This document shows positions 4,066-19,033 of a stretch of DNA of 64,000 bases, in pieces. Below the pieces are notes generated by a model that searched no databases, was not told the origin of the DNA, and saw nothing but the letters and a program-made list of their open reading frames with translations. A program made the position numbers and the translations under genes. Every line of letters starts with the position of its first letter. The stretch's first letter is position 1. The stretch comes from Christensenellales bacterium (GTDB lineage Bacteria; Bacillota; Clostridia; Christensenellales; UMGS416), in contig JBMNEH010000001.1 of assembly GCA_050948665.1 (NCBI GenBank), forward strand, positions 1,723,813 through 1,787,812, in the 5' to 3' direction.

Positions 4066-5714
4066 CAAAAAAGATATTCAGATCCATCCTTCTCGTAGCC
4101 GGCGCCGTGTTGCTCGCAAGCCTTGTCATCATTATGGGGTGCCTCTACGATTATTTCAGCAACATACAGAAAAACCAGATGAAAGATCAGCTTAACCTGG
4201 CGGCGATAGCTGTTGAAAGCGAAGGCAAAAGCTCTCTTGAAAAAATTAACTCAAACAACTACAGGCTCACATGGGTCGCGTCCGACGGCACAGTGATTTA
4301 TGACACACAGGCAGATGCCCAAACAATGGAAAATCATTTGGACCGCAGCGAGATACAGAATGCTCTATCCAGCGGAGAGGGTGAAAGCTCTCGATTTTCA
4401 TCAACGCTTCTGGAAAAGACAATGTATCTCGCAAAGCGGCTATCCGACGGCAGTGTCCTGCGCATTTCCGTCAGCCGCGCCACTGCAGGTCTGCTGGCGC
4501 TGGGGATGCTCCAGCCCATTTTGATCGTTCTTGCGGTCGCGCTTGTTTTGTCCGGTGTTTTGGCAGGCCACATGTCCAAAAGAGTCACCGAGTCGCTGAA
4601 CAAGCTTGATCTTGAGAACCCTTTAGAAAACGATGCTTACGAGGAACTTGCCCCGCTTTTGCGCAGAATCAACCACCAGCAGCAAGAGATAAAAAATCAG
4701 CTTAGGCTACTACAACGCCAACGCGACGAGTTCTCACAGATCACCGGTTATATAAAGGAAGGGCTGGTACTGTTGGATGCGAAGGATGCCGTACTCAGTA
4801 TCAATCACGCCGCGAAGAAACTCTTTGACACGGACAATTCCTGCATAGGCCATGATTTTCTGACGATAGACCGTAGTCTTGAGATGAGCGCAGCCATACG
4901 GCAGGCAAAAGAAAGCGGTTCCGGCGAACTTCGCATGAAGCGAAATGGGCGCATCTATCAATTCGATTTAAGTAAAATTGAATCGGGCGGCGAAGTGATC
5001 GGTATCGCCATTCTCTCCTTTGATATTACTGAACAGGACGCTGCGGAACGAATTCGCAGAGAGTTCACCGCCAATGTGTCTCACGAGTTAAAAACCCCAC
5101 TGCAAGGCATCATAGGCAGTACGGAGCTTTTGGAAAAGGGCATGGTGAAGCGGGAAGACGAGCCTCGTTTTATCGGGCATATCCGTACAGAGAGCGCAAG
5201 AATGATGGCAATGATCGACGATATTATCCGCCTTTCTCAGCTTGACGAAGGTGATGCTATGCCGCATGAAGCCGTGGACATGCTGGAGGTCGCGCAGGAA
5301 ACCATCGAAAACCTGCATGACGCTGCAGTGAAAAAGGGCGTAGCACTCGTCGTTGATGGAATAAGCGCTGAGGTGAATGGCGTGCGGCGGTTATTATGTG
5401 AAATCGTCTACAACCTCTGCGATAACGCCATCAAGTACAACAAAGAAGGCGGCAGTGTGGAGATCAATGTTATGTCGGACGACCGCACGGTCTCTCTCAC
5501 GGTAAAAGATACCGGTATCGGTATTCCTCTGGAATACCAGGGACGGGTATTTGAGCGGTTCTATCGCGTGGACGAGAGCCATTCGAGAACTTCCGGCGGT
5601 ACAGGGCTGGGCCTCTCCATTGTTAAGCACGCCGTGCAATATCACCATGGCCATATTGAACTTGAAAGCGAACCGGACAAGGGAACCAAAATTAAGGTCA
5701 CTTTTCCCAAATAG
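4062..5714 (+). CDS. phoR: Sensor histidine kinase (PhoR-like)
   Basis: N-terminal TM segments, H-box SHELKTPL, and the N, G1 (DTGIGIP) and G2 (GGTGLGLSIV) boxes. ATGA overlap with the regulator. Confidence 0.85.
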   Translation: MTKKIFRSILLVAGAVLLASLVIIMGCLYDYFSNIQKNQMKDQLNLAAIAVESEGKSSLEKINSNNYRLTWVASDGTVIYDTQADAQTMENHLDRSEIQNALSSGEGESSRFSSTLLEKTMYLAKRLSDGSVLRISVSRATAGLLALGMLQPILIVLAVALVLSGVLAGHMSKRVTESLNKLDLENPLENDAYEELAPLLRRINHQQQEIKNQLRLLQRQRDEFSQITGYIKEGLVLLDAKDAVLSINHAAKKLFDTDNSCIGHDFLTIDRSLEMSAAIRQAKESGSGELRMKRNGRIYQFDLSKIESGGEVIGIAILSFDITEQDAAERIRREFTANVSHELKTPLQGIIGSTELLEKGMVKREDEPRFIGHIRTESARMMAMIDDIIRLSQLDEGDAMPHEAVDMLEVAQETIENLHDAAVKKGVALVVDGISAEVNGVRRLLCEIVYNLCDNAIKYNKEGGSVEINVMSDDRTVSLTVKDTGIGIPLEYQGRVFERFYRVDESHSRTSGGTGLGLSIVKHAVQYHHGHIELESEPDKGTKIKVTFPK

Positions 5715-5740
5715 TCAAAAGCACACTTTTGATTCGAAAA

Positions 5741-5771
5741 CAGACGCTTCCCAAAGGAACGTCTGTTTTTT
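5741..5771 (+). terminator. Rho-independent terminator of the pst-pho operon
   Basis: CAGACGCTTCC / GGAACGTCTG stem followed by TTTTTT. Confidence 0.6.
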
Positions 5772-6088
5772 CTTTGGTTTCCATTCTTCTGATTGCCTAT
5801 ATCATAAACAAACACCTGTTTTGATTCACCAGATATTATGATGATTTTTTTACATTTTTTTGAACCCTTTTCGTGCGGATTTTCTATTTCATGAGCGACA
5901 AAAGGCTCCATGGCACGACGATATGAATCGCGGCGGAGCCTTTTTCATTTAACCCTTCTGTCTCCTAACAAAGTATAAGGCGTGCCTTTTTAACAAAGAG
6001 GCATGCGTTTTATGATCTTTCCGTAAAAGCTCAGGGATGTGGACGCCATAACACCGGAAATCGGCTGAAACCCGGGGGCATCTCTATG

Positions 6089-7069
6089 CTAATACTTGAT
6101 AAACTTTTCCCCCGGAACATTGCAGATAAAGCATTTGTCCGGACGGACCTTCTCAATGTTTCCGCAGACAGGGCACAGATAATAGAAAACCTCTTCGGTC
6201 TGATCCAGATTTTCCAAGGCATCTTTATAAAGCTTCGCGTGAACCTCTTCCGCCTTCATAGCAAAAGTAAAGGCAATATGCGCGGCCTTATTCCCTTCCG
6301 CATCGGCTTCCTTCACAAAACCAGGATACATTTCCTCGTATTCATATGTTTCACCAGCAATAGCGTCCACCAGATTTTCCGCAGTTGTGTTCACTTTTCC
6401 CGCAAGCTCGAATTCTTTAAGCGCGTGCAACGTCTCGGCATCAGCGGTTGCTTTGAATAATTTGGCCGCATTCATCTTACCGTCTTTTTCAGCTTTTTTT
6501 GCGTATGCCAGGTATTTTCTGTTGGCCTGGGATTCTCCGGCAAATGCCTCCATCAGATTCTTCAACGTTTTGTTTTCACTCATTGTATTATCCTCCTTAT
6601 TTTCTTTCAAAGATTCCAGTAATTCTTCCGCTGCCGCTTTGGGGAAACCCTCAGGCTGTTGTTGGTCGATCAAGGTCTTAAGAAAATCTATGGAATTGTC
6701 ACTTTGCGGAAGCATAAATCCTGCTTCCCTGATAATATCCTCGGCCATGATTTGATTGGATTTTTCAATGGCCACTGCCAACTTCCCGGGTAATGCGGAA
6801 GCAATACACTCCTGTTCCGTCTTGCTACGCAAAAGTGTTCTAAGAACTTTGATGACTTCTTCGGTTTTGGGCTGCTGTGGCGGATAAACTTCGGGCACCA
6901 TAGATATAGCGCCGGATGGGCAGGCGTCCGCACAATCTCCGCAACCAATGCATTTGCTAACATCGATGACACTGTTCTCTGTATCTGTCGCCCCAGTAGG
7001 ACACACATAGAGACACAAACAATCTTTGGTGCATAGGCGTATATTTCTAACAGCGTATTTCTTAGTCAT
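6089..7069 (-). CDS. Ferredoxin (2x[4Fe-4S]) - linker - rubrerythrin fusion protein
   Basis: The N-terminus carries CIGCGDCADACP plus a second Cys cluster. The C-terminal 164 aa are a full rubrerythrin (NLMEAFAGESQANRKYL, EEVHAKLY) with a rubredoxin-like tail (CPVCG...CFIC). Confidence 0.85.
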   Translation of the reverse strand: MTKKYAVRNIRLCTKDCLCLYVCPTGATDTENSVIDVSKCIGCGDCADACPSGAISMVPEVYPPQQPKTEEVIKVLRTLLRSKTEQECIASALPGKLAVAIEKSNQIMAEDIIREAGFMLPQSDNSIDFLKTLIDQQQPEGFPKAAAEELLESLKENKEDNTMSENKTLKNLMEAFAGESQANRKYLAYAKKAEKDGKMNAAKLFKATADAETLHALKEFELAGKVNTTAENLVDAIAGETYEYEEMYPGFVKEADAEGNKAAHIAFTFAMKAEEVHAKLYKDALENLDQTEEVFYYLCPVCGNIEKVRPDKCFICNVPGEKFIKY

Positions 7070-7740
7070 TATAATGACCTCCCCTCAACCTTTTCGAATT
7101 TCCAATTCGGCACCTTACAGACAGGGCAAACCTCCGGCAAGCTATCCCCTATGTATATAAAACCGCAAATTGTACAGACATGAACACCGGTGTTTTCCAG
7201 TATGGCGTCGCCCTTCCTCTGATATCGGGTCAAAAGAGACTTCAAAACCCGTGTAACCTTCTCACTCCAAACCAGAGCGCGGAGCGCGCCGCGATCTTTG
7301 GTATCGATAGCTATAGCATTTGCGTTCGTAAAACCTTGTTCAAGATCTTTTTCAATCAGTTCCATCAGTTGGTTGAAATCCGGGTTCTCGGCAGGTAGTG
7401 AAGCGTCTTTGAAAAAACCGGCCAGTTCGGAAAAGAGAGCCGCCTCCTTCGGCTTGTACTGCTTTTCACAGCCTCGAGCCAGATTCGTGCAAAGGACGCT
7501 GACCTCAAGCGGAGAAAGCCCCCGCATATCAGTCGTCCGCTCTGCAACGGGTTTTTTCTTCTTTTCAGAAGACACAGTTCCGCCTTGCTTTTCAAATTCC
7601 GCTTTTGTCGCCCCGCAAAGAGGACAAACCCAATCAACCGGCAGGTCTTCCCACTTTGTGCCCGGTATAATGCTTGCTTCCGGGATGCCCTTTGCCTCAT
7701 TATAAATGTAACTGCAAATAGTGCATACATATTTACCCAT
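7069..7740 (-). CDS. Rubredoxin-domain protein with a second C-terminal Cys4 knuckle
   Basis: N-terminal rubredoxin (CTIC...WVCPLCG) and C-terminal VCTICGF...CPVCKVP. The stop overlaps the downstream start (TAATG). Confidence 0.75.
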
Positions 7741-8068
7741 AACATTACCTCCTTTTATATTCTAACAAAGCAAAAGCCTTTTGTCTGTAACCTTGTTACA
7801 TAAAATGCAAATTCGCTTTATTGACTTTTGTTGAATTTGCTTTAAAAAAAGAACGGTTGGGCCACCGGCAGAAGCAGGCTCGGTAAACACAACGATATGT
7901 TTTGAAACTGTCGCTAAAGTAGCATTTTCCGCAACCTAAATACAAACTCTCATGGTGTCTCCGTAATCAGAGATATCCAACATCGCTTAACTCCATTGTA
8001 CAAACACTGCGTGGGTGAAAAAATAGTTCTTCACTCCCATCTGTAGGAGATTCGATAGAGATATTACT

Positions 8069-8428
8069 CTACTCGCCGCGCTTTTCGTAATACTGATGCT
8101 CATGGCAAACAGAGCCTGTTGACTTTAACTCTCCCTTCAGATAATTCTGAACAGCGGTTTTCGCATCGCCGGAAGCGCCAACGATGACCTCTACATTCCT
8201 ATCATTAAAGATATCGATCGCGCCGCCGCCCATGCCCCCGCTGATAATCACATTAACACCTCTGTCAGCCAGGAAATTGGGTAAGAAGCCGGGTCTATGC
8301 CCGGGGTTGGGTATAGATTCCTCCTTTATGATTTTTCCGTTTTCAATATCGTAAATCAAAAAATTAGCGCAGTGACCAAAGTGCTCCGTCACATTTGTAC
8401 CTTCACCGGCAATAGCGATTCTCAGCAT
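8069..8428 (-). CDS. NifB/NifX-family (dinitrogenase FeMo-cofactor-binding-like) small protein
   Basis: 119 aa with the family-typical signature EHFGHCANFLIYDIENGK...GGMGGGA. Confidence 0.8.
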   Translation of the reverse strand: MLRIAIAGEGTNVTEHFGHCANFLIYDIENGKIIKEESIPNPGHRPGFLPNFLADRGVNVIISGGMGGGAIDIFNDRNVEVIVGASGDAKTAVQNYLKGELKSTGSVCHEHQYYEKRGE

Positions 8429-8892
8429 TTCTTTTCCTCCATATTTTTATTTTCGATATATTCGTCCAGTATTTGTGCGGCATATGCAACAAACTCTGCG
8501 CAGGGACGCTTTTTGTAGTAAGACTCTGTTCTTTTCTCCGGAAGTGGCAAATCATGTTTTAATGTAAGGCCCAACAACTCTCTGCATATGATCGAACCGT
8601 TTTCTTCTTCGAACTTTTTTGCCATGGTCTGAATCAACGCATAGTGTTCATATTTCTTTGATTGATCCGCCGGGTCGGCATATCCATATTTCATTCCGGC
8701 AACCATAAACATTCCGGTGACGGCTCCGCACACCTCCCGAAGCCTTCCCATACCCCCGCCAAAGGACGATGATATTTTTAACGCGTCCTCCAAATCAAGG
8801 CCGGTTTCATCACAAAACGCGGCAAATACTGCTTGCGAGCAATTGTAACCCTTTTTAAACAAGTCTTTTGCGCAATCTGAATGTTTACTCAA
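8422..8892 (-). CDS. C_GCAxxG_C_C family protein
   Basis: Motifs YNCSQAV and EVCGAVTG. TTG start overlaps the stop of the upstream MBL gene (TTGA). Confidence 0.82.
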   Translation of the reverse strand: MSKHSDCAKDLFKKGYNCSQAVFAAFCDETGLDLEDALKISSSFGGGMGRLREVCGAVTGMFMVAGMKYGYADPADQSKKYEHYALIQTMAKKFEEENGSIICRELLGLTLKHDLPLPEKRTESYYKKRPCAEFVAYAAQILDEYIENKNMEEKKC

Positions 8893-9755
8893 TGCCTTTT
8901 CCTTCTCTGATTGTTTCCGACGTTTTCCCTATTGATCGTCAATTGATCGCCGGTCGATATGTAGCCGATCTTTTCTCCCATCACAGTTTTTAAATGGTGA
9001 TAGGGCTCAATGCCTGTGCAGTGACAGGTGTAAAAACGCGCCCCGGTCTTCAACAGAATATGTCCGATCTCAATTACAACATGCGGAGCCTCACTTTGTT
9101 TTGTTCCATTGCTGTAAAGATGAAATCCTCCGATTACGTAATCAGGCAGGCACCCTTTTTCCGCATAAAATTGATCGATAATGTTGACGATCCCGGTATG
9201 CGCACATCCCGCGACCAACAAAGTTTTTCCGTTTTCACTAATGATCAAGTTTTGCTCATGTGCAAAATCATCCCGCACAAAAGCATCTCCGTCTTTCATG
9301 AGCAAGTCAACATTACCTGAAGGAAGGTGTTTTGGGGATCCAATGCCGGAAAACAACACAAGTTCATCGTCAATTATAAATCTGTCACCACAGAATACAA
9401 ATCGTTCATTCGGCAACAACGATCTATCCAGCCCGATATATGCTTTATTGCTTCCCGGTCTGCTTGCGTAATACGGTCCAAATGCCTTTTGATGCAGGTA
9501 AATCTTTGCTTTTTTGTTGATATCAAGAAATGTTTTTAAGCCGCCGCCATGATCATAGTGGCCATGAGAAAGCACAGCCAGATCGATCCTTGTTAAATCA
9601 ACGCCCATTTTCTCAGCATTTTCGGCAAAAAGACCGCTTGCGCCCGTATCAAACAGGATCTTATGATTTTCAGTTTCAATGTAAAAACTTAAGCCGTGTT
9701 CGCTGCCAAGCTTCTCTGAAGATGCCGTGTTTTCAGATAACACCTTTACTATCAT
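8889..9755 (-). CDS. MBL-fold metallo-hydrolase
   Basis: HGHYDHGGG metal-binding motif, 288 aa. 4-nt overlap with the upstream ATPase gene. Confidence 0.85.
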   Translation of the reverse strand: MIVKVLSENTASSEKLGSEHGLSFYIETENHKILFDTGASGLFAENAEKMGVDLTRIDLAVLSHGHYDHGGGLKTFLDINKKAKIYLHQKAFGPYYASRPGSNKAYIGLDRSLLPNERFVFCGDRFIIDDELVLFSGIGSPKHLPSGNVDLLMKDGDAFVRDDFAHEQNLIISENGKTLLVAGCAHTGIVNIIDQFYAEKGCLPDYVIGGFHLYSNGTKQSEAPHVVIEIGHILLKTGARFYTCHCTGIEPYHHLKTVMGEKIGYISTGDQLTINRENVGNNQRRKRH

Positions 9756-10639
9756 GCTTCATTATCTTCACTTTCATCGAATAGTAACTGCATTGTGCTG
9801 TCATAAACCTCTTTTACGGCAGCTCCGGAAGGACAATCGATATCTACTATAGTCTGTCCGTTATTGATCGCTTTGACAGCCTCCGGGTCAAACGGTATCC
9901 TGCCAGTAAACGGCAGTCTTTTTTCTTTACAAAATTCCTCTATTTTTTTTGTATTAGCGGCATTGATGTCATGCTTATTGATACAGATTCCTATCTTGAT
10001 TTTGAAAGTTTCCGCTGTTTTTATGATGCGCTCCATATCGCTGATCCCCGAAACAGACGGCTCCGCAACAACCAGGACCATATCTACTCCGCTGAGGGAA
10101 GCGATAACGGGACAGCCTATACCGGGAGAGCCATCAATAATGGCCAGTTTAGCATCCGGACTCGCCATCGTTTTCATTTGTTTTTTTACTTCTGTAACGA
10201 GTTTTCCCGAAGTACCGCTTCCCATTTTCAACTGTGCTGTTGAAAAAATGTTGTCTCCGTCAGCATACAGCATCAGCTCTCCTGCAACGGCGGGTTTCAG
10301 GCAAGCCGCATTTGCCGGGCAGAAAGCTTCACAAACCCCGCAGCCTTCACAGGCATAAGGATCGACCATATAGCCATTCGTATTGGAAATAGCGTCGAAT
10401 CGGCAATACTTTTTGCATAATCCGCATTCAATGCATTTATTTGCGTCTATTTCAGATTTTGGCATGCCGAAATAGTCTGTCCATCTCGGATCGATATTTT
10501 GCGCCATGATCAGGTGAAGGTTAGGTGCGTCAACATCGCAATCGGCATAGGTTTTGGCACATGAAAGCTTGATAAAAGCGCTGGCTATCGTCGTTTTCCC
10601 GGTACCGCCCTTACCGCTGAGGATCAACAGTTGTTTCAT
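9752..10639 (-). CDS. MinD/CbiA-type P-loop ATPase with 2x[4Fe-4S] ferredoxin insert
   Basis: Walker A SGKGGTGKTT, then CIECGLCKKYC and CEGCGVCEAFCP. GGAGG SD. Confidence 0.85.
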   Translation of the reverse strand: MKQLLILSGKGGTGKTTIASAFIKLSCAKTYADCDVDAPNLHLIMAQNIDPRWTDYFGMPKSEIDANKCIECGLCKKYCRFDAISNTNGYMVDPYACEGCGVCEAFCPANAACLKPAVAGELMLYADGDNIFSTAQLKMGSGTSGKLVTEVKKQMKTMASPDAKLAIIDGSPGIGCPVIASLSGVDMVLVVAEPSVSGISDMERIIKTAETFKIKIGICINKHDINAANTKKIEEFCKEKRLPFTGRIPFDPEAVKAINNGQTIVDIDCPSGAAVKEVYDSTMQLLFDESEDNEA

Positions 10640-11498
10640 GCCGCACCTCCTTCATCACAGTCTTAAGCAACGAAGCAAATAATACGCGAAACCTGTCGTT
10701 TTCCCTTGCGGCTATTTTTGCGTCCGAATTAAGGCTTCCGAGTTCACTGTCAAACGGTATCCGGGCCAATATTGGAACATTGTTCTCCATACAAAATGCA
10801 TCCAAAGGGTTCTCTGCGTCAAGACACTTGTTCAGCACGACTCCGTGCGGCTTTTCAAACAGCCTTACCAAATCGTAGACCATGTTGAAATTATGAATGC
10901 CAAACACCGTCGGCTCAGCAACAAGTATGCAATAATCCGCGTCCTTGATACTTTCCATGACACTGCAGGCGCTTCCCGGTGGGCAGTCGATAAAAACGGG
11001 AAGCGCTTCATCTGCAATGCTCTCGTTAAGAAGATTTTTGATGATCGGTATTCCGATCGCTATGCCCGGATCCATGATCCCGGTATGAACGCTTACATTA
11101 CCGGAAACACCTCTCCGTACTACCCCGATTGACTTTTCTTCTTCACCGATTGCTTTCTCCGGGCAGAGAAGCATGCAACCGCCACAGGAGTGGCACACCT
11201 CCTCAAAAACATATGGTTTTTTCTTTATGAATGCAAGGGCATTAAACTTACAAAAGTCAATACATTTGCGGCAACCATTGCATAAGCTTTCGTTGAAGAC
11301 CGGTATTTTTACAGAAATGATCTCCTCGCGAACATTCTCGGGCTTAAAAAACAAATGACCATTGGGCTCTTCAACATCGCAATCAATATAGACGGATCTC
11401 TCGGCGATCGATGCTAAATTAACAGATACCAGCGTTTTGCCTGTACCGCCTTTGCCGCTCAGTATGGCGATTTGCACACCTTTATTTTCCACGCCCAT
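10611..11498 (-). CDS. MinD/CbiA-type P-loop ATPase with 2x[4Fe-4S] ferredoxin insert (paralog)
   Basis: Walker A SGKGGTGKT, then CNGCRKCIDFC and CHSCGGCMLLCP. The start is uncertain: ATG 11498 is chosen, the ORF-track TTG at 11531 or GTG at 11477 are alternatives. Confidence 0.78.
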   Translation of the reverse strand: MGVENKGVQIAILSGKGGTGKTLVSVNLASIAERSVYIDCDVEEPNGHLFFKPENVREEIISVKIPVFNESLCNGCRKCIDFCKFNALAFIKKKPYVFEEVCHSCGGCMLLCPEKAIGEEEKSIGVVRRGVSGNVSVHTGIMDPGIAIGIPIIKNLLNESIADEALPVFIDCPPGSACSVMESIKDADYCILVAEPTVFGIHNFNMVYDLVRLFEKPHGVVLNKCLDAENPLDAFCMENNVPILARIPFDSELGSLNSDAKIAARENDRFRVLFASLLKTVMKEVRHETTVDPQR

Positions 11499-11847
11499 GA
11501 AATCCCGGGTGAAAGTCTTTAAGCAAATCAAGCTTTTCAGCTAAAAATGCGTCAATGTTTTGCTGTACAGTTCCGGGAATAGATTTATAGATCAGTACCT
11601 CCGACCTGCGTAATACATCTTCCGCGTTTTTACCGCAGCGCGGTGTAAGCAGTGCCTTAACATCATGGTCGGCTAATACCTGCGCGGCCATGATCCCGGC
11701 TCCGCCCTGGTTGGCTGCAGCGGTGTTCTCAAGATAATTGCTTTCCTTTGTATCTGTATTATAGAGAAGGAAATAAGGGGCTCGTCCAAAAGAGGAACAC
11801 ACACCTGATCCCAAGTTTATCTCATCTACCGGTATTGCTATTTTCAT
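11482..11847 (-). CDS. NifB/NifX-family (FeMo-cofactor-binding-like) small protein
   Basis: 121 aa with SFGRAPYFLLYNTDT...GGAGIMAAQ. GGAGG SD. Confidence 0.8.
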   Translation of the reverse strand: MKIAIPVDEINLGSGVCSSFGRAPYFLLYNTDTKESNYLENTAAANQGGAGIMAAQVLADHDVKALLTPRCGKNAEDVLRRSEVLIYKSIPGTVQQNIDAFLAEKLDLLKDFHPGFHGRGK

Positions 11848-11895
11848 TTTGATCCTCCATTCTGATTGTTTTCAAATTCTCCCGGTTTCGGGTTC

Positions 11896-12255
11896 TTACG
11901 TAAAACCTCTGCCGCCTCTATGACGACGGCAGGCGCCCCTTCCGCATCCATTCTCTCTGCCGTTGCAGAGCAGATAATCGCCTCCTTCTATACAAAGCAC
12001 TTTCCCATTGACCAAGGACTCGGCAAGCTTTCTCCTGGCCATATCATACATTCCCTGAACGGTTGTGCGGGAAACGTTCATTTGATTGGCGCACTCTTCC
12101 TGCGTAAATCGATCTAAATCAATGAGTCTTATCGTTTCATACTCATCGACAGTCATATTTACCGTGTTTGCTGCATCTGCAAAGGAGTCAAGAGGTCCGA
12201 AACGATTACTGTCCGGAAGGTAGCAAACTCTTCTCCGTTTTCGGGGTCTTGGCAT
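11896..12255 (-). CDS. DUF134 (UPF0251) predicted DNA-binding protein with C-terminal 4-Cys tail
   Basis: MPRPRKRRRV...TVDEYETIRLIDLDRFTQEECANQMNVSRTTV (HTH-like), then VLCIEGGDYLLCNGRENGCGRGAC. GGGAGG SD. Confidence 0.85.
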   Translation of the reverse strand: MPRPRKRRRVCYLPDSNRFGPLDSFADAANTVNMTVDEYETIRLIDLDRFTQEECANQMNVSRTTVQGMYDMARRKLAESLVNGKVLCIEGGDYLLCNGRENGCGRGACRRHRGGRGFT

Positions 12256-12317
12256 TAAATCTCACCTCCCATAACAGCAGAAGTAACCGGAGCTCCTCTC
12301 GGTTACTTCTGCTGCTT

Positions 12318-12617
12318 TCACAGATTTTCCAGCTGTTTGTCAATGACATCCAATCGATTTTTCAGCACATCCCTCTGCTCTTGGAGCAGCTCTTTTTCTG
12401 TTTTGGAGGAGTCCTGATTTGTGGCAAACTCCCTTCCCAAACCACGTCCGTAGCCACGTCCGTAACCGCGTCCGAAGCCACGCCTGCAGCCACCCAAACC
12501 TAACCCCAGTCCAAGACCGGCACCGGTTTTTACTGCGTCAGCATCTGTGCATGAACCTAATCCTCTTCCCGTCATTGCTCCTGCGCCCATTGGGCCGGTT
12601 CCATCCCTTCTCGGCAT
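12318..12617 (-). CDS. DUF5320-like protein (RG/GY-rich segment plus coiled coil)
   Basis: MPRRDGTGPMGAGAMTGRGLG..., then GFGRGYGRGYGRG, then KELLQEQRDVLKNRLDVIDKQLENL. ATG 12617 has AAGGAGG 8 nt upstream; the upstream ATG of the track ORF has no SD. Confidence 0.75.
   Translation of the reverse strand: MPRRDGTGPMGAGAMTGRGLGSCTDADAVKTGAGLGLGLGLGGCRRGFGRGYGRGYGRGLGREFATNQDSSKTEKELLQEQRDVLKNRLDVIDKQLENL
12442..12489 (-). repeat. Four tandem 12-nt coding repeats (RG/GY motif)
   Basis: Plus strand reads CCACGTCCGTAG CCACGTCCGTAA CCGCGTCCGAAG CCACGCCTGCAG. The minus strand encodes CRRGFGRGYGRGYGRG. Confidence 0.85.
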
Positions 12618-12631
12618 ATCATTCACCTCCT

Positions 12632-12692
12632 TATCATTTCCGGCATATGCCGCTTTCAACTACTATTATACATCGTTTCCGGCATATGTCAA
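12632..12692 (-). promoter_or_regulatory. Near-consensus sigma-A-type promoter plus repeated operator-like element for the DUF5320/DUF134 operon
   Basis: On the minus strand: TTGACA (12692-12687), a 16-nt spacer, then TATAAT (12670-12665). An 18-nt direct repeat CATATGCCGGAAAyGATr lies at 12688-12671 and 12649-12632. CGGCATATGCCG (12641-12652) is a 12-bp palindrome. Confidence 0.6.
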
Positions 12693-13039
12693 CAACTATT
12701 TTTAAATTTTTTGATTTTTTTCAAAATGAGACAGTTGTTCTGTCTTCAACATATAAATCCGAGCCCGCGAGGAATTTGTAAATAAAGCAAATCACAATTC
12801 ATGATGATAGACATGTCGATGATTGGAAAATAACCATATCATATGGTTCAGCCTCTCGCCGATATAAATGGTTAAACACTTTAAACAAATCATATAAAAC
12901 AAAGAAGTTATGGTACAACGCCATAAAGGTCTGGATTTTAATTGCAGCGGCCTTCTTTTCTGAAACAATTCTTTTCCTTTCGATTTTCGAAAGAATGTGA
13001 TATTATTCTCAATGGTTAAGGATCCATAAGGAGTAGACA

Positions 13040-13852
13040 ATGGAGTTAAACAGTTGGGGGCTTGCGCTGACATTATCGTTGCTTGCCGGACTTTCTACGG
13101 GACTGGGCGGATTATTCGTTCTTTTTTTAAAAAATGTGAATACAAAGCTATTGTCGATCTCCCTTGGATTTTCAGCAGGAATAATGATATATATCTCCTT
13201 TATGGAAATCCTTCCGGAAGCAAAATTGCAGCTTGTATCAGAGTTGAGTGAAAGTGCCGGCGGATGGATCACATTGGCGTCATTCCTGGCAGGCATTCTA
13301 TTGATCGCAGTAATTGATAAACTGATCCCCTCTCATGAAAATCCCCATGAGATCCGCCAAATCCATGAAGTTTGCCAATACAGTGACAGTACAACAAAGC
13401 CTCATCTTATGAGGACAGGTCTTTTAACCGCGGTTGCAATAACTATCCATAATTTCCCAGAAGGCATGGCAACGTTTATATCAGGGATCAGCCACTATAA
13501 GCTGGGAATAGCAGTCGCAATTGCCGTTGCCATTCACAATATCCCGGAAGGGATTTCCGTTGCCATACCTATTTATTGCGCAACAGGAAACCGGCGGAAA
13601 GCTTTTTTCTTTTCACTGCTATCAGGAATAACCGAACCGCTGGGCGCGGTTATAGCCTTCTTATTCCTTGCCCCTTTTTTAAGCGAATTGCTGTTGGGTA
13701 TGCTTTTTGCGGCGGTCGCCGGGATAATGGTCTATATTTCCTTTGACGAACTCTTGCCGACAGCACAGCAATGCGGTGAACATCATTTGGTCATCTATGG
13801 ATTATTCGCTGGGATGCTTGTTATGGGAGTCAGCATGCAGCTCCTTCTGTGA
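13040..13852 (+). CDS. zupT: ZIP-family zinc transporter ZupT
   Basis: 270-aa multi-pass protein with two HNFPEG/HNIPEG motifs typical of ZupT. AAGGAG SD. Confidence 0.88.
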   Translation: MELNSWGLALTLSLLAGLSTGLGGLFVLFLKNVNTKLLSISLGFSAGIMIYISFMEILPEAKLQLVSELSESAGGWITLASFLAGILLIAVIDKLIPSHENPHEIRQIHEVCQYSDSTTKPHLMRTGLLTAVAITIHNFPEGMATFISGISHYKLGIAVAIAVAIHNIPEGISVAIPIYCATGNRRKAFFFSLLSGITEPLGAVIAFLFLAPFLSELLLGMLFAAVAGIMVYISFDELLPTAQQCGEHHLVIYGLFAGMLVMGVSMQLLL

Positions 13853-13890
13853 AAATTCTTTACAGCATCAATACTATTTCGAAAGTTACT

Positions 13891-13921
13891 CGCCGGCAAA
13901 ACCTGTTCGCCGGCGTTTTTC
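13891..13921 (+). terminator. Rho-independent terminator of zupT
   Basis: CGCCGGC (13891-13897) pairs with GCCGGCG (13909-13915), then TTTTT. Confidence 0.6.
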
Positions 13922-14150
13922 GTCTCATTTATTTGCACACTTCTGCAAAGAGGAGACATCGTGGCAATTTATTGATAAATGCAAATTTGGGGAATTAAAC
14001 AGAAAGATCAGTCCGTATTTACCAAGACAATCACTCACTTCGTCTATACTGCTAACAATGTCTCAGTCAATCATAGAATTTCAACCCTGACAACTGTTTT
14101 CAAGCACATATGTAACCTATATAAAATTCTTTGATTCCAAAAAACAGTTT

Positions 14151-17100
14151 TTATCCCACTACCAATTTATTTGTCTTTTTAAGAAACTTCGCCGGGATTG
14201 GGCGATCCAGGTGCCAAATAATATTCATCGGCTTAGAACCTGTGTGTGCCACATAACTGGCCGTGCCGAGATAGGTGTAAGCCTCCGCACTATTTGTGAT
14301 TCTATCTGTTTTGAATTCGCGGACAAACAACAAAACCTTTATACCCCTATCCCTATGATAAATATAGCGCTGACCAGTGGGAGAATCCGCAGCAGTAGTA
14401 CTCTGACTCTGCCAATGGAACAGGCTTTCATTTATAGAATAATCGTTGTACATTGTCGTAGGCGAGTAATCTTTATCGGATTTATTCAGTGTTACAAAGA
14501 ACACATCCAACTGCTTTTCAGGCAACCACTTGACCCCCTCGCGTACCGTGTTAGGTTTCATGAAATCCATAGCCACCAGCAATTGATCACGTGTATAGGT
14601 ACAATGCAAATCCAACGGACAATCAAATCCTAAATCAACAGGCTCATCGATAAAATCGATTTGTTCGTACCGATATTGTAGCAGATTCATTAGCTCATCT
14701 ATCAGTGTAGTGCTATCAGACAGAGCCGAAAGGTTGCCCAGCACCTTTTCATCGTCCCAAGACTCTGCGCTTTCGCCCCAAACAGTGATGTAAAACATTT
14801 GAAGCATGCGCCTCTCCGCATCGCTAAAAGCCGCAAAATCCGCATTATCTAAACGAGGCAGGATATCTAGCAAGAAAGATATCCAGCGCCTGGAATCAAT
14901 CACGGCAAGGCGCGCAAAAGCCTTAGTAAGTATTTCCTCCGCAGGCTCCTCGAACTCTTCAATCATATCCGCTCTGGCGCAGAGACGTGAGAAGGATGTG
15001 AACTTGTAAATTGCTCTTGGATCTAAATGATAGTAATACAAAAAGTTCTTCAAGTTCAGTTCTAACCCGCTGTCCTCTCTAAAAGTGGCAACACGAGAAA
15101 CCAAGCCTGCTGTATTTCCATAGGAAGCCCGGATGTTATCAAGGATATATTTAGCTGCCTTCTTTTCCAGTTGAATGTAGCAGCCTTTTGGTACAGAGAT
15201 AAAGCCATCCTTGATTTCGTGCGTCACGCTTCGAGTGGTATTGCTCAACAGTGCTGCGAACTTATCCTCAAAACTATATTTTTTATTTGCCTGACCGATA
15301 AAATCCAGAACGGTCAAACATTCTTTATCTTCAGCCAAACGTAATCCACGACCCAATTGTTGCAAAAATACAGTCAGAGATTCTGTGGGTCGCAAGAAAA
15401 GAACAGTATTAACTTCGGGTATGTCCACACCTTCGTTATAGATATCTACAACAAAAATAAAGCGAATTTCTCCGGACACCAAGCGCTGCTTAGCATTTTT
15501 TCTTTCCTCATCTGGGGAAGCTCCTATCAGAAACATGGAAGGAATATTATGCTCATTGAAATAACGACACATAAATGCAGCATGCTCAGTAGAAACACAG
15601 AAGCCAAGACCTTTGACATCATTGATATCCGTCACGTATTTCAACAGAGAATCTATAACCAAATCGGCACGACGATTGGCAGTTGCGCCGCTGAGGGTAT
15701 AAACTTTAGTCAACTCACCTTTATCATAACCGCCAGCGCTCCACTTTAACATGTTCAGGTCGACCGTATCGGTAACACCAAAGTACTGGAAAGGACTCAA
15801 CAGTTTACGATCTATGGCTTCAGGAAGACGAATTTCAGCCGCAATACGATTATCGAAATACGGCAAAATACTCTTCCCGTCCATACGCTCAGGAGTTGCG
15901 GTCAGCCCAAGGAGAATCTGCGGCCGATAGTACTCTAAGAGTTTCTGATATGAGGGTGCCGCTGCATGGTGAAACTCGTCTACAATGATATAGTCATAGA
16001 AATCATCTGCAGTCTTCATGGTAAAATCCCGGGAGTTAAATGTCTGAATGGATATGAATAAATTTTCAATGTCATTTGGCTTGTGACTGCCAACAAACAG
16101 CTCTCCAAAGTTGGCATCCTTAAGAACAGCACGAAAAGTGTACAAACTCTGTTTCAAAATCTCCTCACGATGAGCTATGTACAGCAAGCGACAAGGTTTT
16201 CCGGAATTCTGCTTACGAAAGTGCTTATAATCCAACGCAGAGACAACTGTTTTCCCGGTACCAGTGGCCGCCACCACCAAGTTGTGATTATGGCCTCGTA
16301 CTTTGCGTTCTGCCTCCAGCTTATCTAAAATTTCCTGCTGATATGGGTACGGCATAATGTCCATAGTGTAGATATCAGGGCTACTTCCATCCGCATGCTT
16401 TTCAGCCTTTAACGCGCGAGCTAGACGTTCTTTTTGATCCTCAGAATAATACTCAAATTCATTAGAATTCCAGTAGCTTTCAAAGGTTGCTTCGATTTTA
16501 TCGATAGTCTCCGGAAGGTCCTTCTTTGTAACCTTGACATTCCATTCCAATCCGCTTGAAATAGCGGTGTTGGAAAGATTGGAAGAACCAACATAAGCGG
16601 TAGTAAAACCGGTATTACGATAGAACACATAGGTCTTTGCGTGGAGTCGCGTGCGCTTCGTATCATAACTCACCTTAATTTTAGTGTTCAGTAATTGACG
16701 CAGTTCTTCAATAGCCCTCACATCGGTAGCGCCCATATAGGAAGTGGTGATAATCCGTAGCTCGCCGCCATTCATGGTAAACTCTCGTAACTCGTCCATC
16801 AAAAGACGCAGACCACTCCACTTAATAAAGGAAACCAGCATATCAACGCGATCCGCAGATACGATTTCCTTCTTCAATTCGGTGTACATTTGGGGTTCAT
16901 GTCTTGCACCAGTGAATAAAGAGCTTTGTGCGATAGATGTTTCAGGGCGGTTCAAATCAGCCGCCGTCTTACCAACTATCAGACGAGGATCATTTTCTCT
17001 CAGAAGAGCAAGAAGCTGCTCTGCGCGCTGGTCAACGCCCAGCGCGGCAAAGTCTGTTTCCTTTGTAATGCTTTGAATTAATTCTATTATTTGATTGGTG

Positions 17101-17306
17101 AGCATGATTTGATCAGAGATATCCCCACCATTGTCAATCATGTTATCCAGGCCCTTTTGAACCACATCAACCAAATACTGCGTCAGGATTTTAGAGGCTT
17201 CCGCCTTATCAATGGGCGCAACTGCCTTACGGGCTTCCGGAATCTCCGCAAGATCGCTGTTCAGCAGATTATTGATAACTTGTTCGTAAAGACCGTATTC
17301 TAACAT
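14151..17306 (-). CDS. HKD (PLD-family) nuclease - SF2 (ResIII/DEAH) helicase - DUF3427-like C-terminal domain protein
   Basis: Single HKD motif LHAKTYVF...GSSNLS (aa 221-245). Walker A ATGTGKT (346-352), DEFHH (443-447), LTATPER (468-474), QQLGRGLR (649-656). C-terminal about 150 aa with FVTLNK...FHWQSQ...LLFVRE...YLG...PMNIIWHL. Confidence 0.85.
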   Translation of the reverse strand: MLEYGLYEQVINNLLNSDLAEIPEARKAVAPIDKAEASKILTQYLVDVVQKGLDNMIDNGGDISDQIMLTNQIIELIQSITKETDFAALGVDQRAEQLLALLRENDPRLIVGKTAADLNRPETSIAQSSLFTGARHEPQMYTELKKEIVSADRVDMLVSFIKWSGLRLLMDELREFTMNGGELRIITTSYMGATDVRAIEELRQLLNTKIKVSYDTKRTRLHAKTYVFYRNTGFTTAYVGSSNLSNTAISSGLEWNVKVTKKDLPETIDKIEATFESYWNSNEFEYYSEDQKERLARALKAEKHADGSSPDIYTMDIMPYPYQQEILDKLEAERKVRGHNHNLVVAATGTGKTVVSALDYKHFRKQNSGKPCRLLYIAHREEILKQSLYTFRAVLKDANFGELFVGSHKPNDIENLFISIQTFNSRDFTMKTADDFYDYIIVDEFHHAAAPSYQKLLEYYRPQILLGLTATPERMDGKSILPYFDNRIAAEIRLPEAIDRKLLSPFQYFGVTDTVDLNMLKWSAGGYDKGELTKVYTLSGATANRRADLVIDSLLKYVTDINDVKGLGFCVSTEHAAFMCRYFNEHNIPSMFLIGASPDEERKNAKQRLVSGEIRFIFVVDIYNEGVDIPEVNTVLFLRPTESLTVFLQQLGRGLRLAEDKECLTVLDFIGQANKKYSFEDKFAALLSNTTRSVTHEIKDGFISVPKGCYIQLEKKAAKYILDNIRASYGNTAGLVSRVATFREDSGLELNLKNFLYYYHLDPRAIYKFTSFSRLCARADMIEEFEEPAEEILTKAFARLAVIDSRRWISFLLDILPRLDNADFAAFSDAERRMLQMFYITVWGESAESWDDEKVLGNLSALSDSTTLIDELMNLLQYRYEQIDFIDEPVDLGFDCPLDLHCTYTRDQLLVAMDFMKPNTVREGVKWLPEKQLDVFFVTLNKSDKDYSPTTMYNDYSINESLFHWQSQSTTAADSPTGQRYIYHRDRGIKVLLFVREFKTDRITNSAEAYTYLGTASYVAHTGSKPMNIIWHLDRPIPAKFLKKTNKLVVG

Positions 17307-17862
17307 ACGTTCTTCCCTTTCTTAAATTTCTTGCAAAAACGGATATTCACATTACTCTGATTTCTTTATAATGATGCGACTATTTCGTCGCATCAGAAGC
17401 CACCGATCTTTACAAAATCACTTTGCAATATGGTTATTTACCATATCTTTTTTATATCCCCAACAACCAACATTTTCCGGAGTTTTCGAACAGCTGACTG
17501 CTCTAAAGGCACTCCTCCCGATAAACCAAATGTATCCCACCGCTTGCAGGTCACTAATTTTCTGTCTTTTAGCCAAGCCTAACAGCGCTTAGAAGCATTG
17601 TATGTTATTTTAACACAAGCTCTGACAAGTTGCTACACATAATCGAGCCGCCGCATGATTTGTTATAGGACTTTGGGGAATGGCTCGCATCTTCAACCAA
17701 ACAGCAGTTTCGATATTCGTTTGCATTTCACGTCTTTCCCCCGCCGGAAATTCCGCACAAACTGCACTGAGATCCCCACCGGTTCGTATATCTTCCGGCT
17801 TTTATACGGCAGGAGTTGCCGCAATTTCATCGAAATTACGATATGGAACGGAGGGGTTCAGC

Positions 17863-18956: not shown

Positions 18957-19033
18957 GCGCCATTAGCTCAGCTGGATAGAGCGTTTGGCTACGGACTAAA
19001 AGGCCGGGGGTTCGAATCCCTCATGGCGCGCCA
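18957..19033 (+). tRNA. tRNA-Arg (anticodon ACG)
   Basis: Manual cloverleaf. Acceptor GCGCCAT/ATGGCGC, D-arm GCTCAGCTGGATAGAGC, anticodon stem TTTGG/CTAAA with loop CTACGGA, T-arm GGGGGTTCGAATCCCTC, encoded GCCA 3' end. Confidence 0.9.

What the first reader, a model, noticed from the sequence alone, without database searches (positions are those of the whole stretch)
14151..17306. Stand-alone 1051-aa HKD nuclease - SF2 helicase - DUF3427-like protein: candidate single-gene defence or DNA-surveillance factor
Seen: one polypeptide combines three parts. The first is a single HKD/PLD nuclease motif (LHAKTYVF...GSSNLS, aa 221-245; a single copy implies dimerisation, as in Nuc or BfiI-type enzymes). 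The second is a complete ResIII/DEAH helicase core (ATGTGKT, DEFHH, LTATPER, QQLGRGLR). The third is a roughly 150-aa beta-rich C-terminal domain (FVTLNK..FHWQSQ..LLFVRE..PMNIIWHL) that I recognise as DUF3427-like. The gene is monocistronic, convergent with zupT, and flanked by 298-nt and 556-nt non-coding AT-rich spacers. There is no adjacent methyltransferase, specificity subunit or partner gene. Hand GC counts on single 60-nt lines gave 25/60 (14161-14220) and 24/60 (15361-15420). That compares with 38/60 in pstB (2401-2460) and 35/60 in alr (36901-36960). Inference: the nuclease-plus-translocase architecture without a cognate methylase fits a modification-dependent or otherwise self-sparing anti-phage/anti-plasmid enzyme, with the C-terminal domain acting as target reader. 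I am not aware of a functional description of this exact architecture.
Basis: partly seen in the sequence, partly recalled or inferred. Interest (0 to 1): 0.66.

Follow-up and report, generated by a model that had tools for sequence, protein, structure and literature searches.

The report
SauUSI-type methylated-DNA restriction enzyme
This gene encodes a relative of SauUSI, a well-studied bacterial enzyme that uses ATP to find and shred foreign DNA carrying methylated cytosine, so it is an ordinary new member of a known defence family rather than a new kind of system.

Summary
The architecture is not undescribed. It is that of SauUSI, the ATP-dependent Type IV (5mC/5hmC-dependent) restriction enzyme of Staphylococcus aureus (biochemistry 2011, crystal structure 7CLG 2021). 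The evidence is a near full-length PADLOC Type IV model hit (E 3.8e-234), one collinear 29% identity alignment to SauUSI (E 3.7e-96), and a confident AlphaFold model whose best PDB match by far is 7CLG (E 4e-48). All mutagenesis-proven nuclease residues, the ATPase motifs and most of the 5mC-pocket residues are conserved. The protein belongs to a sister subfamily (PADLOC PDLC03659, not SauUSI's PDLC03658). It carries an extra ~117-aa N-terminal helical module with no recognisable relatives, which is common in this "long-form" clade. Orthologues (73-89% identity) occur in at least 181 species, mostly gut Clostridia, always in different contexts and often next to other defence genes. Two-thirds have a downstream NUDIX gene, a linkage already reported for SauUSI; the window copy lacks it. 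The verdict is a new member of a known kind, of low interest. The exact modified base and sequence context cannot be read from sequence.

The parts
14151..17306 (-). Complete gene for a 1051-aa SauUSI-family Type IV restriction enzyme (includes stop codon)
   Evidence: ORF. PADLOC mREase_IV PDLC03659 E 3.8e-234 covering aa 118-1041. PDB 7clg_A E 3.2e-87. Foldseek 7clg E 4e-48.
16956..17306 (-). aa 1-117: N-terminal helical extension absent from SauUSI and from both PADLOC models; function unknown
   Evidence: The PADLOC model starts at aa 118. The region is conserved as a 'long form' in most close 50%-cluster representatives, with G5 and Y7 near-invariant. AF2 models it as helical with pLDDT 84-95. 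There is no match by PDB profile (best E 0.3), Foldseek PDB (best E 2.6) or BFVD (best E 1.2). It is the least conserved region among orthologues, at 63% mean identity.
16470..16955 (-). aa 118-279: PLD/HKD-family nuclease domain with one HxK motif; catalytic H222, K224, N243, E254
   Evidence: Pfam PLDc_2 and RE_NgoFVII. The residues align with SauUSI H119/K121/N139/E150, whose alanine mutants are inactive (PMC3141236). They are invariant in 77 orthologues and in 85 diverse relatives.
16359..16469 (-). aa 280-316: flexible linker between nuclease and ATPase
   Evidence: AF2 pLDDT <50 at aa 307-314. The equivalent SauUSI linker (192-220) is disordered in the crystal (PMC7913695). Conservation is low, 70%.
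15267..16358 (-). aa 317-680: SF2 helicase-like ATPase/translocase (two RecA-like lobes): Walker A GTGKT 349-353, Walker B DEFH 443-446, motif III TAT 469-471, motif VI QQLGRGLR 649-656
   Evidence: Pfam ResIII and Helicase_C. All motif residues are invariant in 85 relatives. K352/T353, D443 and R653/R656 align with SauUSI K255/T256, D342 and R541/R544.
14712..15266 (-). aa 681-865: alpha-helical coupler domain linking ATPase to TRD
   Evidence: AF2 secondary structure is all-helical from about 694 to 882. It is collinear with the SauUSI coupler (618-805; PMC7913695).
14184..14711 (-). aa 866-1041: DUF3427 / SRA-like target recognition domain (predicted flipped-cytosine pocket F937, V938, Y953, D955, W965)
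   Evidence: Pfam DUF3427 E 5e-25. It aligns with the SauUSI TRD. D955 is invariant and W965 is present in 84 of 85 relatives. The beta-rich fold is modelled at high pLDDT.
13853..14150 (.). 298-nt spacer between the convergent stop codons of zupT and the restriction gene; holds no NUDIX remnant
   Evidence: GC 35.9%. tblastn with 48 NUDIX partner proteins gives no hit better than E 0.19 anywhere in the window. No flanking repeats.
17307..17862 (.). Divergent intergenic region between the restriction gene and the OYE-type oxidoreductase; presumably holds both promoters
   Evidence: A purine-rich Shine-Dalgarno-like AAAGGGAAG lies 6 nt upstream of the ATG. There is no Rfam family, promoter-like sites are not above the shuffled expectation, and there are no meaningful repeats.

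Best explanation
The gene encodes an ATP-dependent Type IV (modification-dependent) restriction endonuclease of the SauUSI family. By homology it should work as follows. Two subunits dimerise through their N-terminal PLD domains, so that the two half-sites (H222/K224/N243/E254 from each chain) form one nuclease active site. The C-terminal SRA-like DUF3427 domain flips a modified cytosine out of foreign DNA into a pocket (D955, W965, F937, V938). Recognition switches on the SF2 motor, which translocates along double-stranded DNA using ATP and carries the nuclease to the cleavage point. Repeated cycles shred the modified DNA. The host spares itself by not carrying that modification, so no methylase is needed. 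What is shown here is the homology, the domain order, and the conservation of catalytic, ATPase and most pocket residues. What is inferred is dimerisation, translocation, the modified base (most likely 5-methyl- or 5-hydroxymethyl-cytosine) and its sequence context. The extra N-terminal helical module has no assigned role. This copy works without the NUDIX partner found beside most orthologues.
For: PADLOC mREase_IV PDLC03659 E 3.8e-234, aa 118-1041 against model positions 14-935 of 945. phmmer against PDB: 7clg_A SauUSI E 3.2e-87, collinear, query 146-1021 against chain 46-919. BLASTP to SauUSI 46-919: 29.3% identity over 918 columns, one HSP, E 3.7e-96. AlphaFold2 model pLDDT 90.2, pTM 0.84. 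Foldseek top hit is 7clg (E 4e-48, 951 columns), 31 orders of magnitude ahead of the next hit, RadD, which covers the helicase only. The SauUSI catalytic residues proven by mutagenesis (PMC3141236) align with H222/K224/N243/E254. The Walker A/B and motif VI residues and pocket residues F841/I842/D858/W868 align with F937/V938/D955/W965. All of these are invariant or conservatively substituted in 77 orthologues and, apart from F937 (F43/L32), in 85 relatives at 35-57% identity. No methyltransferase lies within +/-10 kb and no DNA MTase motif set is found in the window. Orthologues sit in variable contexts, often beside Wadjet, MkoA-like, BREX or HEPN-SNF2 genes. The mechanism is taken from PMC3141236, PMC7913695 and bioRxiv 10.1101/2025.10.16.682607.
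Against: Identity to SauUSI is only 29%, and the protein fits a different PADLOC Type IV model (PDLC03659, 778 bits) better than SauUSI's own (PDLC03658, 309 bits). I could not identify a biochemically characterised member of that sister subfamily. The two SauUSI residues proposed to wedge into the DNA (M829) and to touch the methyl group (Y831) are not conserved or cannot be aligned unambiguously: M829 maps to E923, and Y831 maps to W927 by HMMER but V925 by MAFFT. Position 927 varies across the family (Y/W/H/R/F). Nothing here demonstrates activity, expression, or the absence of cytosine methylation in the host genome. In this window the gene sits among housekeeping genes, not in a defence island.
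Confidence: 0.82

Rival explanations
1. It is the same SauUSI-type machine but reads a different mark. The TRD of this sister subfamily could recognise another cytosine derivative (for example glucosylated or otherwise hypermodified 5hmC, or N4-methylcytosine), or 5mC in a quite different sequence context. Its biological targets would then differ from SauUSI's S5mCNGS.
For: The coupler and TRD are the parts that separate the two PADLOC models: SauUSI matches PDLC03659 only over its nuclease and helicase, residues 7-520 of the fragment. The methyl-contacting Y831 and wedge M829 of SauUSI are not conserved. The candidate equivalent position 927 is variable across the family but fixed as W in this orthologous group. 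Other DUF3427 enzymes bind both 5mC and 5hmC with differing activity (PMC6765204).
Against: The residue proposed to make cytosine-specific hydrogen bonds (D858 to D955) is invariant, and the stacking tryptophan (W868 to W965) is present in 84 of 85 relatives. The simplest expectation is therefore a 5-substituted cytosine, as in SauUSI.
Confidence: 0.2
2. It is a genome-maintenance factor rather than a defence enzyme. A highly conserved helicase-nuclease would work with a MutT-like NUDIX hydrolase on damaged or aberrant bases in the cell's own DNA.
For: Purifying selection is exceptionally strong for a defence gene: dS is saturated in 75 of 76 comparisons, dN/dS is about 0.025 in the one finite pair, and identity stays at 73-89% while GC3 drifts from 0.29 to 0.80 with host composition. 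A MutT/NudG-like NUDIX gene lies downstream in 48 of 72 loci. The helicase core resembles RadD. The window copy sits among housekeeping genes.
Against: No locus among 80 species shares the window's neighbours, so the gene is not at a fixed core position. The nearest ZupT relatives lack it. Related loci hold Wadjet, MkoA-like, BREX and HEPN-SNF2 genes or phage recombination genes. The full-length homologue with a known function is a restriction enzyme. In S. aureus the NUDIX gene is dispensable for restriction (PMC3312211). RadD similarity is limited to the SF2 core.
Confidence: 0.06
3. It is a silent or decaying copy: intact in sequence but not expressed or not active in this host, having lost its NUDIX partner and defence-island context.
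For: There is no NUDIX gene or remnant. No convincing promoter or terminator was found. Inactivated copies exist elsewhere: an internal stop in L039 and a copy split over three frames in L177.
Against: The ORF is intact and identical on all 8 contigs that carry it, and every catalytic and motif residue is present. A third of orthologous loci also lack the NUDIX gene yet keep intact ORFs. NUDIX is not needed for SauUSI restriction (PMC3312211).
Confidence: 0.05

Closest known systems
SauUSI (Staphylococcus aureus USA300; PDB 7CLG), ATP-dependent Type IV restriction endonuclease
   Same: The domain order is the same in one polypeptide: PLD nuclease, disordered linker, SF2 ATPase, helical coupler, SRA-like DUF3427 TRD. 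The two proteins are collinear over about 875 residues (29% identity, E 3.7e-96; Foldseek E 4e-48). The catalytic H/K/N/E, the Walker A/B and motif VI residues, and pocket residues F/I(V)/D/W are conserved. Neither has a cognate methylase. The orthologous group shares SauUSI's frequent linkage to a MutT/NUDIX gene.
   Different: This protein is 98 aa longer because of an N-terminal helical module of about 117 aa that has no detectable relatives. It falls in a separate PADLOC model (PDLC03659 rather than PDLC03658). The SauUSI wedge (M829) and methyl-contact (Y831) residues are not conserved, so specificity may differ. In this family the NUDIX gene is downstream, whereas in S. aureus it is upstream, and it is absent from this window. 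The host is a Christensenellales-type gut anaerobe rather than Staphylococcus.
DUF3427-PD-(D/E)XK fusions (McaZI, BwiMMI, EfaL9I, YenY4I; Lutz et al. 2019, PMC6765204)
   Same: They share the DUF3427 modified-cytosine-binding domain, they restrict 5hmC phage T4gt and are toxic in Dcm+ hosts, and they are often found in defence islands.
   Different: They use a PD-(D/E)XK nuclease instead of PLD, have no helicase or ATPase, and place the DUF3427 domain at the N-terminus. They are not ATP-dependent translocases.
NgoAVII / CglI-type restriction enzymes (PLD nuclease plus separate SF2 ATPase subunit)
   Same: They combine a PLD-family nuclease (Pfam RE_NgoFVII hit E 4e-9) with an SF2 helicase-like ATPase.
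   Different: They are two-subunit systems with a B3-like DNA-binding domain and a cognate methyltransferase, and they cleave unmodified sites. Here everything is in one chain, the TRD is SRA-like, and there is no methylase.
Type I HsdR / Type III Res / Type ISP (LlaBIII) motor subunits and RadD
   Same: They share the SF2 translocase core (NCBIfam EcoAI R E 3.9e-32, RadD E 5.9e-26; Foldseek RadD, LlaBIII and HsdR hits).
   Different: All scores are far below the curated cut-offs. Those enzymes use PD-(D/E)XK nucleases and need methylase or specificity partners, or, in the case of RadD, have no nuclease or TRD.

Membership tests
SauUSI-family ATP-dependent Type IV restriction enzymes | Single N-terminal PLD/HKD nuclease domain with catalytic His, Lys, Asn and Glu (SauUSI H119, K121, N139, E150) | tested here: met
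   One HxK motif only. H222/K224/N243/E254 align with the SauUSI residues by both HMMER and MAFFT. They are invariant in 77 orthologues and 85 relatives.
SauUSI-family ATP-dependent Type IV restriction enzymes | Central SF2 helicase-like ATPase with motifs I, II, III and VI intact | tested here: met
   ResIII E 3.1e-37 and Helicase_C E 2.5e-12. GTGKT 349-353, DEFHH 443-447, TAT 469-471 and QQLGRGLR 649-656 are invariant. They map to SauUSI K255/T256, D342 and R541/R544.
SauUSI-family ATP-dependent Type IV restriction enzymes | Alpha-helical coupler domain between ATPase and TRD; the same four-domain order in one chain | tested here: met
   The AF2 model is helical from about 694 to 882. A single collinear alignment to SauUSI covers all four domains. 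Foldseek aligns 951 columns to 7clg_A.
SauUSI-family ATP-dependent Type IV restriction enzymes | C-terminal DUF3427 / SRA-like TRD with a pocket for a flipped modified cytosine (SauUSI Y831, F841, I842, D858, W868; wedge M829) | tested here: inconclusive
   DUF3427 E 5e-25. F841, I842, D858 and W868 map to F937, V938, D955 and W965 and are conserved. However, M829 maps to E923, and the Y831 equivalent is ambiguous (W927 by HMMER, V925 by MAFFT).
SauUSI-family ATP-dependent Type IV restriction enzymes | No cognate DNA methyltransferase | tested here: met
   None among the called genes within +/-10 kb. A motif scan of the 64-kb window found only an RsmD-type rRNA MTase. The rest of the genome could not be examined.
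SauUSI-family ATP-dependent Type IV restriction enzymes | Homodimer formed through the nuclease domains | not testable with these tools
   Inferred from the single HKD motif and from the 7CLG dimer (PMC7913695). No multimer prediction was available.
SauUSI-family ATP-dependent Type IV restriction enzymes | ATP-dependent cleavage of 5mC/5hmC DNA and restriction of modified plasmids or phage | not testable with these tools
   This needs biochemistry or genetics. Only homology supports it here.
SauUSI-family ATP-dependent Type IV restriction enzymes | Frequent but non-essential linkage to a MutT/NUDIX gene | tested here: not met
   Absent from the window, with no remnant. Present downstream in 48 of 72 orthologous loci. 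Not defining: Delta-nudix S. aureus still restricts (PMC3312211).
Type I (HsdR) or Type III (Res) restriction subunits | Score above the family cut-off and presence of partner Mod/HsdM/HsdS genes | tested here: not met
   NCBIfam EcoAI R scores 111.5 bits against a 550 cut-off, and hsdR 16.4 against 284.55. There are no partner genes.
RadD / XPB-type repair helicases | Full-length similarity above the cut-off | tested here: not met
   RadD scores 90.9 bits against a 720 cut-off and covers aa 321-677 only. Foldseek RadD hits cover about 380 columns.
DISARM DrmC / PbeA / PLD-helicase anti-phage proteins | Best PADLOC or NCBIfam match to those models | tested here: not met
   PbeA 129 bits, DrmC about 20 bits and PLD_Helicase 17 bits, against 778 bits for mREase_IV. 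phospholipD_antiphage scores 22 bits against a 1100 cut-off.

The most novel reading that the evidence does not exclude
The 'long-form' clade to which this protein belongs may be functionally distinct from SauUSI in two ways. First, its conserved N-terminal helical module, which has no relatives by sequence or fold, may add a regulatory or sensing function. Together with the altered wedge and methyl-contact residues, this could give a different modification specificity. Second, the NUDIX partner (PADLOC candidate PDC-S07, MutT/NudG-like) that accompanies two-thirds of orthologues may hydrolyse 5-methyl-dCTP released from shredded foreign DNA. That would stop modified cytosine being re-incorporated into the host chromosome, where it would trigger self-restriction. 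Solitary copies such as this one would then need another safeguard. The NUDIX function has been called unexamined since 2011, and I found no paper proposing this role.
Probability: 0.15. Interest if true: 0.5.

Novelty: new member of a known kind. Interest (0 to 1): 0.2.

Why it matters
As a finding it mainly corrects an annotation gap. Public records call this protein 'DUF3427 domain-containing protein' or 'superfamily II helicase', although it is a recognisable Type IV restriction enzyme. In practice, such enzymes are the main barrier to introducing E. coli-grown (Dcm-methylated) DNA into S. aureus. The same is likely for the many gut Clostridia that carry this highly conserved orthologue (Faecalibacterium, Flavonifractor, Agathobaculum, Intestinimonas and others). 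People developing genetic tools for these organisms should therefore prepare DNA in dcm-negative hosts. The unexplained N-terminal module and the NUDIX linkage are modest open questions about the family, not about this locus.

Tried and rejected
1. Empty-site comparison. Contigs carrying the identical ZupT all carry the gene. A metagenome scan with ZupT found only relatives at or below 61% identity, with no synteny. The protein database holds no ZupT above 79%, and those sit on 1.3-1.5 kb contigs. The nearest usable contexts (67-69%) lack the gene but are too distant to define insertion boundaries.

2. Insertion scars. There are no meaningful direct or inverted repeats flanking the gene and no integrase nearby. 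A tRNA-Arg lies 1.65 kb upstream, but an OYE gene lies between them.

3. NUDIX remnant in the 298-nt spacer or elsewhere in the window: none.

4. Identity of the N-terminal 117 aa. There is no Pfam, NCBIfam or PADLOC coverage, no PDB profile hit, and no Foldseek hit in PDB or BFVD.

5. Rfam and promoter/terminator scans of the spacers gave nothing above background.

6. Recent horizontal spread as the explanation for the high identity was rejected. Synonymous sites are saturated and GC3 tracks host GC, so the similarity reflects constraint, with older transfers.

7. Low GC as evidence of foreignness was rejected as weak, because the neighbours share it.

8. A literature search for SauUSI homologues in gut Clostridia was badly constrained and returned nothing useful.

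9. My first MAFFT --keeplength mapping of SauUSI residues was wrong beyond the nuclease domain and was redone.

10. Model coordinates are not exposed. I therefore could not resolve the Y831 equivalent structurally, nor see what the N-terminal module contacts.


Full report
OBSERVATION. Every quoted motif is at the stated residue numbers, and the protein holds only one HxK motif. Pfam independently finds PLDc_2 (167-279), ResIII (317-474), Helicase_C (554-657) and DUF3427 (866-1041, E 5e-25). The gene is convergent with zupT and divergent from an OYE-type oxidoreductase. The two spacers measure 298 and 556 nt if the oxidoreductase starts at 17863; one public annotation uses 17680. No methyltransferase or partner gene lies within 10 kb on either side. 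A crude motif scan of the whole window found only an RsmD-type rRNA methyltransferase. The hand GC counts are exact. The compositional argument is weak, though. The gene is 43.7% GC against 49.3% for the window, but zupT is 45% and the whole 6-18 kb stretch is 42-46%.

WHAT IT IS. The architecture is not undescribed. The best match in PADLOC is a Type IV methyl-directed restriction enzyme model, PDLC03659. The score is E 3.8e-234, and residues 118-1041 cover model positions 14-935 of 945. Against PDB sequences the only full-length hit is 7CLG chain A, the crystal structure of SauUSI. The match (E 3.2e-87) is collinear from residue 146 to 1021. I rebuilt SauUSI residues 46-919 from that printed alignment and checked the result against twelve published residue numbers, all of which matched. 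BLASTP then gave 29.3% identity over 918 columns in a single alignment, E 3.7e-96.

An AlphaFold2 model built on 85 diverse relatives is confident (mean pLDDT 90.2, pTM 0.84). Its best PDB match is 7CLG at E 4e-48 over 951 columns. The next hits (RadD, about 1e-17) cover only the helicase core.

SauUSI was shown in 2011 to be an ATP-dependent Type IV enzyme with no cognate methylase. It cleaves 5mC and 5hmC DNA at S5mCNGS sites, and it restricts Dcm+ plasmids and phage (PMC3141236). Its 2021 structure defined the PLD nuclease, SF2 ATPase, helical coupler and SRA-like TRD, with dimerisation through the nuclease domains (PMC7913695). A 2025 single-molecule study described 5mC-triggered unidirectional and loop translocation followed by repeated cleavage.

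RESIDUE-LEVEL TEST. The four SauUSI nuclease residues whose alanine mutants are inactive (H119, K121, N139, E150) align with H222, K224, N243 and E254. Walker A K255/T256, Walker B D342 and motif VI R541/R544 align with K352/T353, D443 and R653/R656. All of these are invariant in 77 orthologues and in 85 relatives at 35-57% identity.

In the TRD, the proposed pocket residues F841, I842, D858 and W868 correspond to F937, V938, D955 and W965. D955 is invariant and W965 is present in 84 of 85 relatives. Two positions do not carry over. The wedge M829 aligns with E923. The methyl-contacting Y831 aligns with W927 by HMMER but with V925 by MAFFT, because of a two-residue indel. Position 927 varies across the wider family (Y, W, H, R, F) but is W in 75 of 77 orthologues. 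Flipped-cytosine recognition is therefore well supported. The exact modification and sequence context are not.

DIFFERENCES FROM SauUSI. First, SauUSI itself belongs to PADLOC model PDLC03658 (2073 bits) and matches PDLC03659 only over its nuclease and helicase. The window protein shows the reverse preference (778 against 309 bits). It is therefore a member of a sister subfamily that defence-annotation tools already model.

Second, it has about 117 extra N-terminal residues. This extension is not an annotation artefact. G5 and Y7 are near-invariant, and most of the closest 50%-identity cluster representatives are 1020-1090 aa and align from residue 2-5. Short forms of 900-960 aa start at about residue 112-145, as SauUSI does. 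The extension is modelled as a helical bundle at high confidence. It has no relatives by PDB profile search (best E 0.3), Foldseek against the PDB (best E 2.6) or Foldseek against viral models (best E 1.2). It is the least conserved part of the protein (63% mean identity against 80-90% for the catalytic domains).

DISTRIBUTION AND CONTEXT. The exact protein is on record from a Christensenellales MAG. Relatives at 73-89% identity, nearly all 1048-1051 aa, occur in at least 181 species-representative genomes. Most are gut Clostridia: Flavonifractor, Pseudoflavonifractor, Faecalibacterium, Agathobaculum, Intestinimonas, Caproiciproducens and Acutalibacteraceae. A few are bins labelled Bacteroides, Oxalobacter, Mailhella or Paludibacteraceae, which may be mis-binned.

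None of 80 such loci shares the window's neighbours. In related loci the gene often lies next to recognised defence genes. These include a complete type I Wadjet, an MkoA-like helicase, a REase-helicase fusion, BrxA and a HEPN-SNF2 protein; in one case the neighbours are phage recombination genes. By contrast the neighbouring ZupT has no relative above 79% in the same database. The nearest ZupT loci with usable context keep the DUF134/CbiA/Lactamase_B metal-cluster genes but lack the restriction gene.

The high identity does not reflect recent spread. Synonymous sites are saturated in 75 of 76 comparisons, and the single finite pair gives dN 0.064 and dS 2.57. GC3 ranges from 0.29 to 0.80 and correlates with flank GC at r = 0.63. 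The protein is under unusually strong purifying selection.

THE NUDIX PARTNER. In 48 of the 72 related loci with enough downstream sequence, a MutT/NudG-like NUDIX gene of about 131 aa follows on the same strand. It lies within 700 nt in 36 of them. In five loci a whole Wadjet operon sits between the two genes. The NUDIX protein matches PADLOC candidate PDC-S07 (E 4e-45).

This linkage is not new. Xu et al. reported at least 60 SauUSI-like genes linked to a MutT/NUDIX gene of unexamined function. Monk et al. found that deleting it in S. aureus did not make the strain transformable in the way that deleting sauUSI did. The window copy has no NUDIX gene and no remnant of one, as do a third of the orthologous loci. 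A solitary copy is therefore compatible with function.

I note, as inference only, that E. coli NudG-type and MazG/DCTPP1-type enzymes hydrolyse 5-methyl-dCTP. A MazG-like ORF also recurs in 14 loci, although it matched no Pfam, NCBIfam or PADLOC family, so that label rests on my reading of the sequence. A role in keeping 5-methyl-dCTP out of host DNA would make sense for a 5mC-dependent nuclease. I did not find this proposed in the papers I read.

VERDICT. It is a new member of a known kind. The open points concern the family rather than this locus: the role of the N-terminal module, the exact specificity of this subfamily, and the function of the NUDIX partner. Interest is low (0.2).

Noticed in passing
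Related loci, e.g. L073:13150-13545, L004:13156-13545, L017:3370-3753 (Flavonifractor plautii): A MutT/NudG-like NUDIX gene of about 131 aa lies downstream on the same strand in 48 of 72 orthologous loci, and within 700 nt in 36 of them. It matches PADLOC candidate PDC-S07 (E 4e-45) and falls into two subfamilies (about 75% and about 35% identical to the reference). The linkage was reported for SauUSI in 2011 with its function unexamined. The window copy lacks the gene.
   Followed up: partly
L024:3440-10285, L026:3320-10179, L008, L020, L068: A complete type I Wadjet operon (JetA, B, C, D; PADLOC E down to 0) is inserted between the restriction gene and its NUDIX partner, which stays on the same strand about 6.8-8 kb downstream. 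The intergenic gap seems to act as an insertion point for other defence systems.
   Followed up: partly
L004-L083 compared with window 14151-17306: Purifying selection is very strong. Protein identity is 73-89% across many genera and families, while synonymous sites are saturated (75 of 76 pairs) and GC3 ranges from 0.29 to 0.80 in step with host GC (r = 0.63). This is unusual for a defence gene.
   Followed up: partly
L032:14698-15021 and 13 other loci: A roughly 107-aa ORF that looks MazG-like to me recurs about 1.5 kb downstream of the restriction gene in 14 loci. It matched no Pfam, NCBIfam or PADLOC family, so its identity is unconfirmed.
   Followed up: partly
L054:1880-4138 and 12 other loci: A 752-aa protein recurs near the restriction gene. 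It combines an MTES_1575-type endonuclease domain with an SF2 helicase whose core resembles that of the restriction enzyme (PADLOC mREase_IV about 187 bits, over the helicase only).
   Followed up: no
L035, L047, L050, L074, L079: Copies at 74-79% identity occur in bins labelled Bacteroides uniformis, Oxalobacter, Paludibacteraceae, Bacteroides sp. and Mailhella. This reflects either cross-phylum transfer or mis-binned Firmicutes contigs. As one example, the L035 flank GC is 0.54.
   Followed up: no
L039 (Feifaniaceae MAG) and L177 (IMG/VR contig) 1838-4993: These appear to be inactivated copies. L039 has an internal stop. In L177 the gene is split over three reading frames, through either frameshifts or assembly errors, and it lies next to BrxA and a HEPN-SNF2 helicase.
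   Followed up: no
window 13040-13852 (zupT): The host lineage is poorly sampled. In a 5.8-billion-protein database the best non-identical ZupT relative is 79% identical and most are at or below 70%. The adjacent restriction gene has more than 100 clusters at 85-89%.
   Followed up: yes
window 17680-17862: The start of the OYE-type oxidoreductase is ambiguous. Public annotations call either a 390-aa product (start 17680) or a 329-aa product (start 17863). This changes the upstream spacer from 373 to 556 nt.
   Followed up: no
window 18957-19033: A tRNA-Arg (ACG) is the only RNA gene found in the window by ARAGORN and Rfam. It lies 1.65 kb from the restriction gene's start, separated from it by the oxidoreductase gene. 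There is no integrase or repeat evidence for a tRNA-targeted island.
   Followed up: partly
window 5000-13000: On the far side of zupT there is a conserved cluster of DUF134, NifB/NifX-like, CbiA/MinD-like Fe-S ATPase, Lactamase_B, C_GCAxxG and rubredoxin/rubrerythrin genes. It is partly syntenic with the nearest ZupT relatives and is unrelated to the finding.
   Followed up: no
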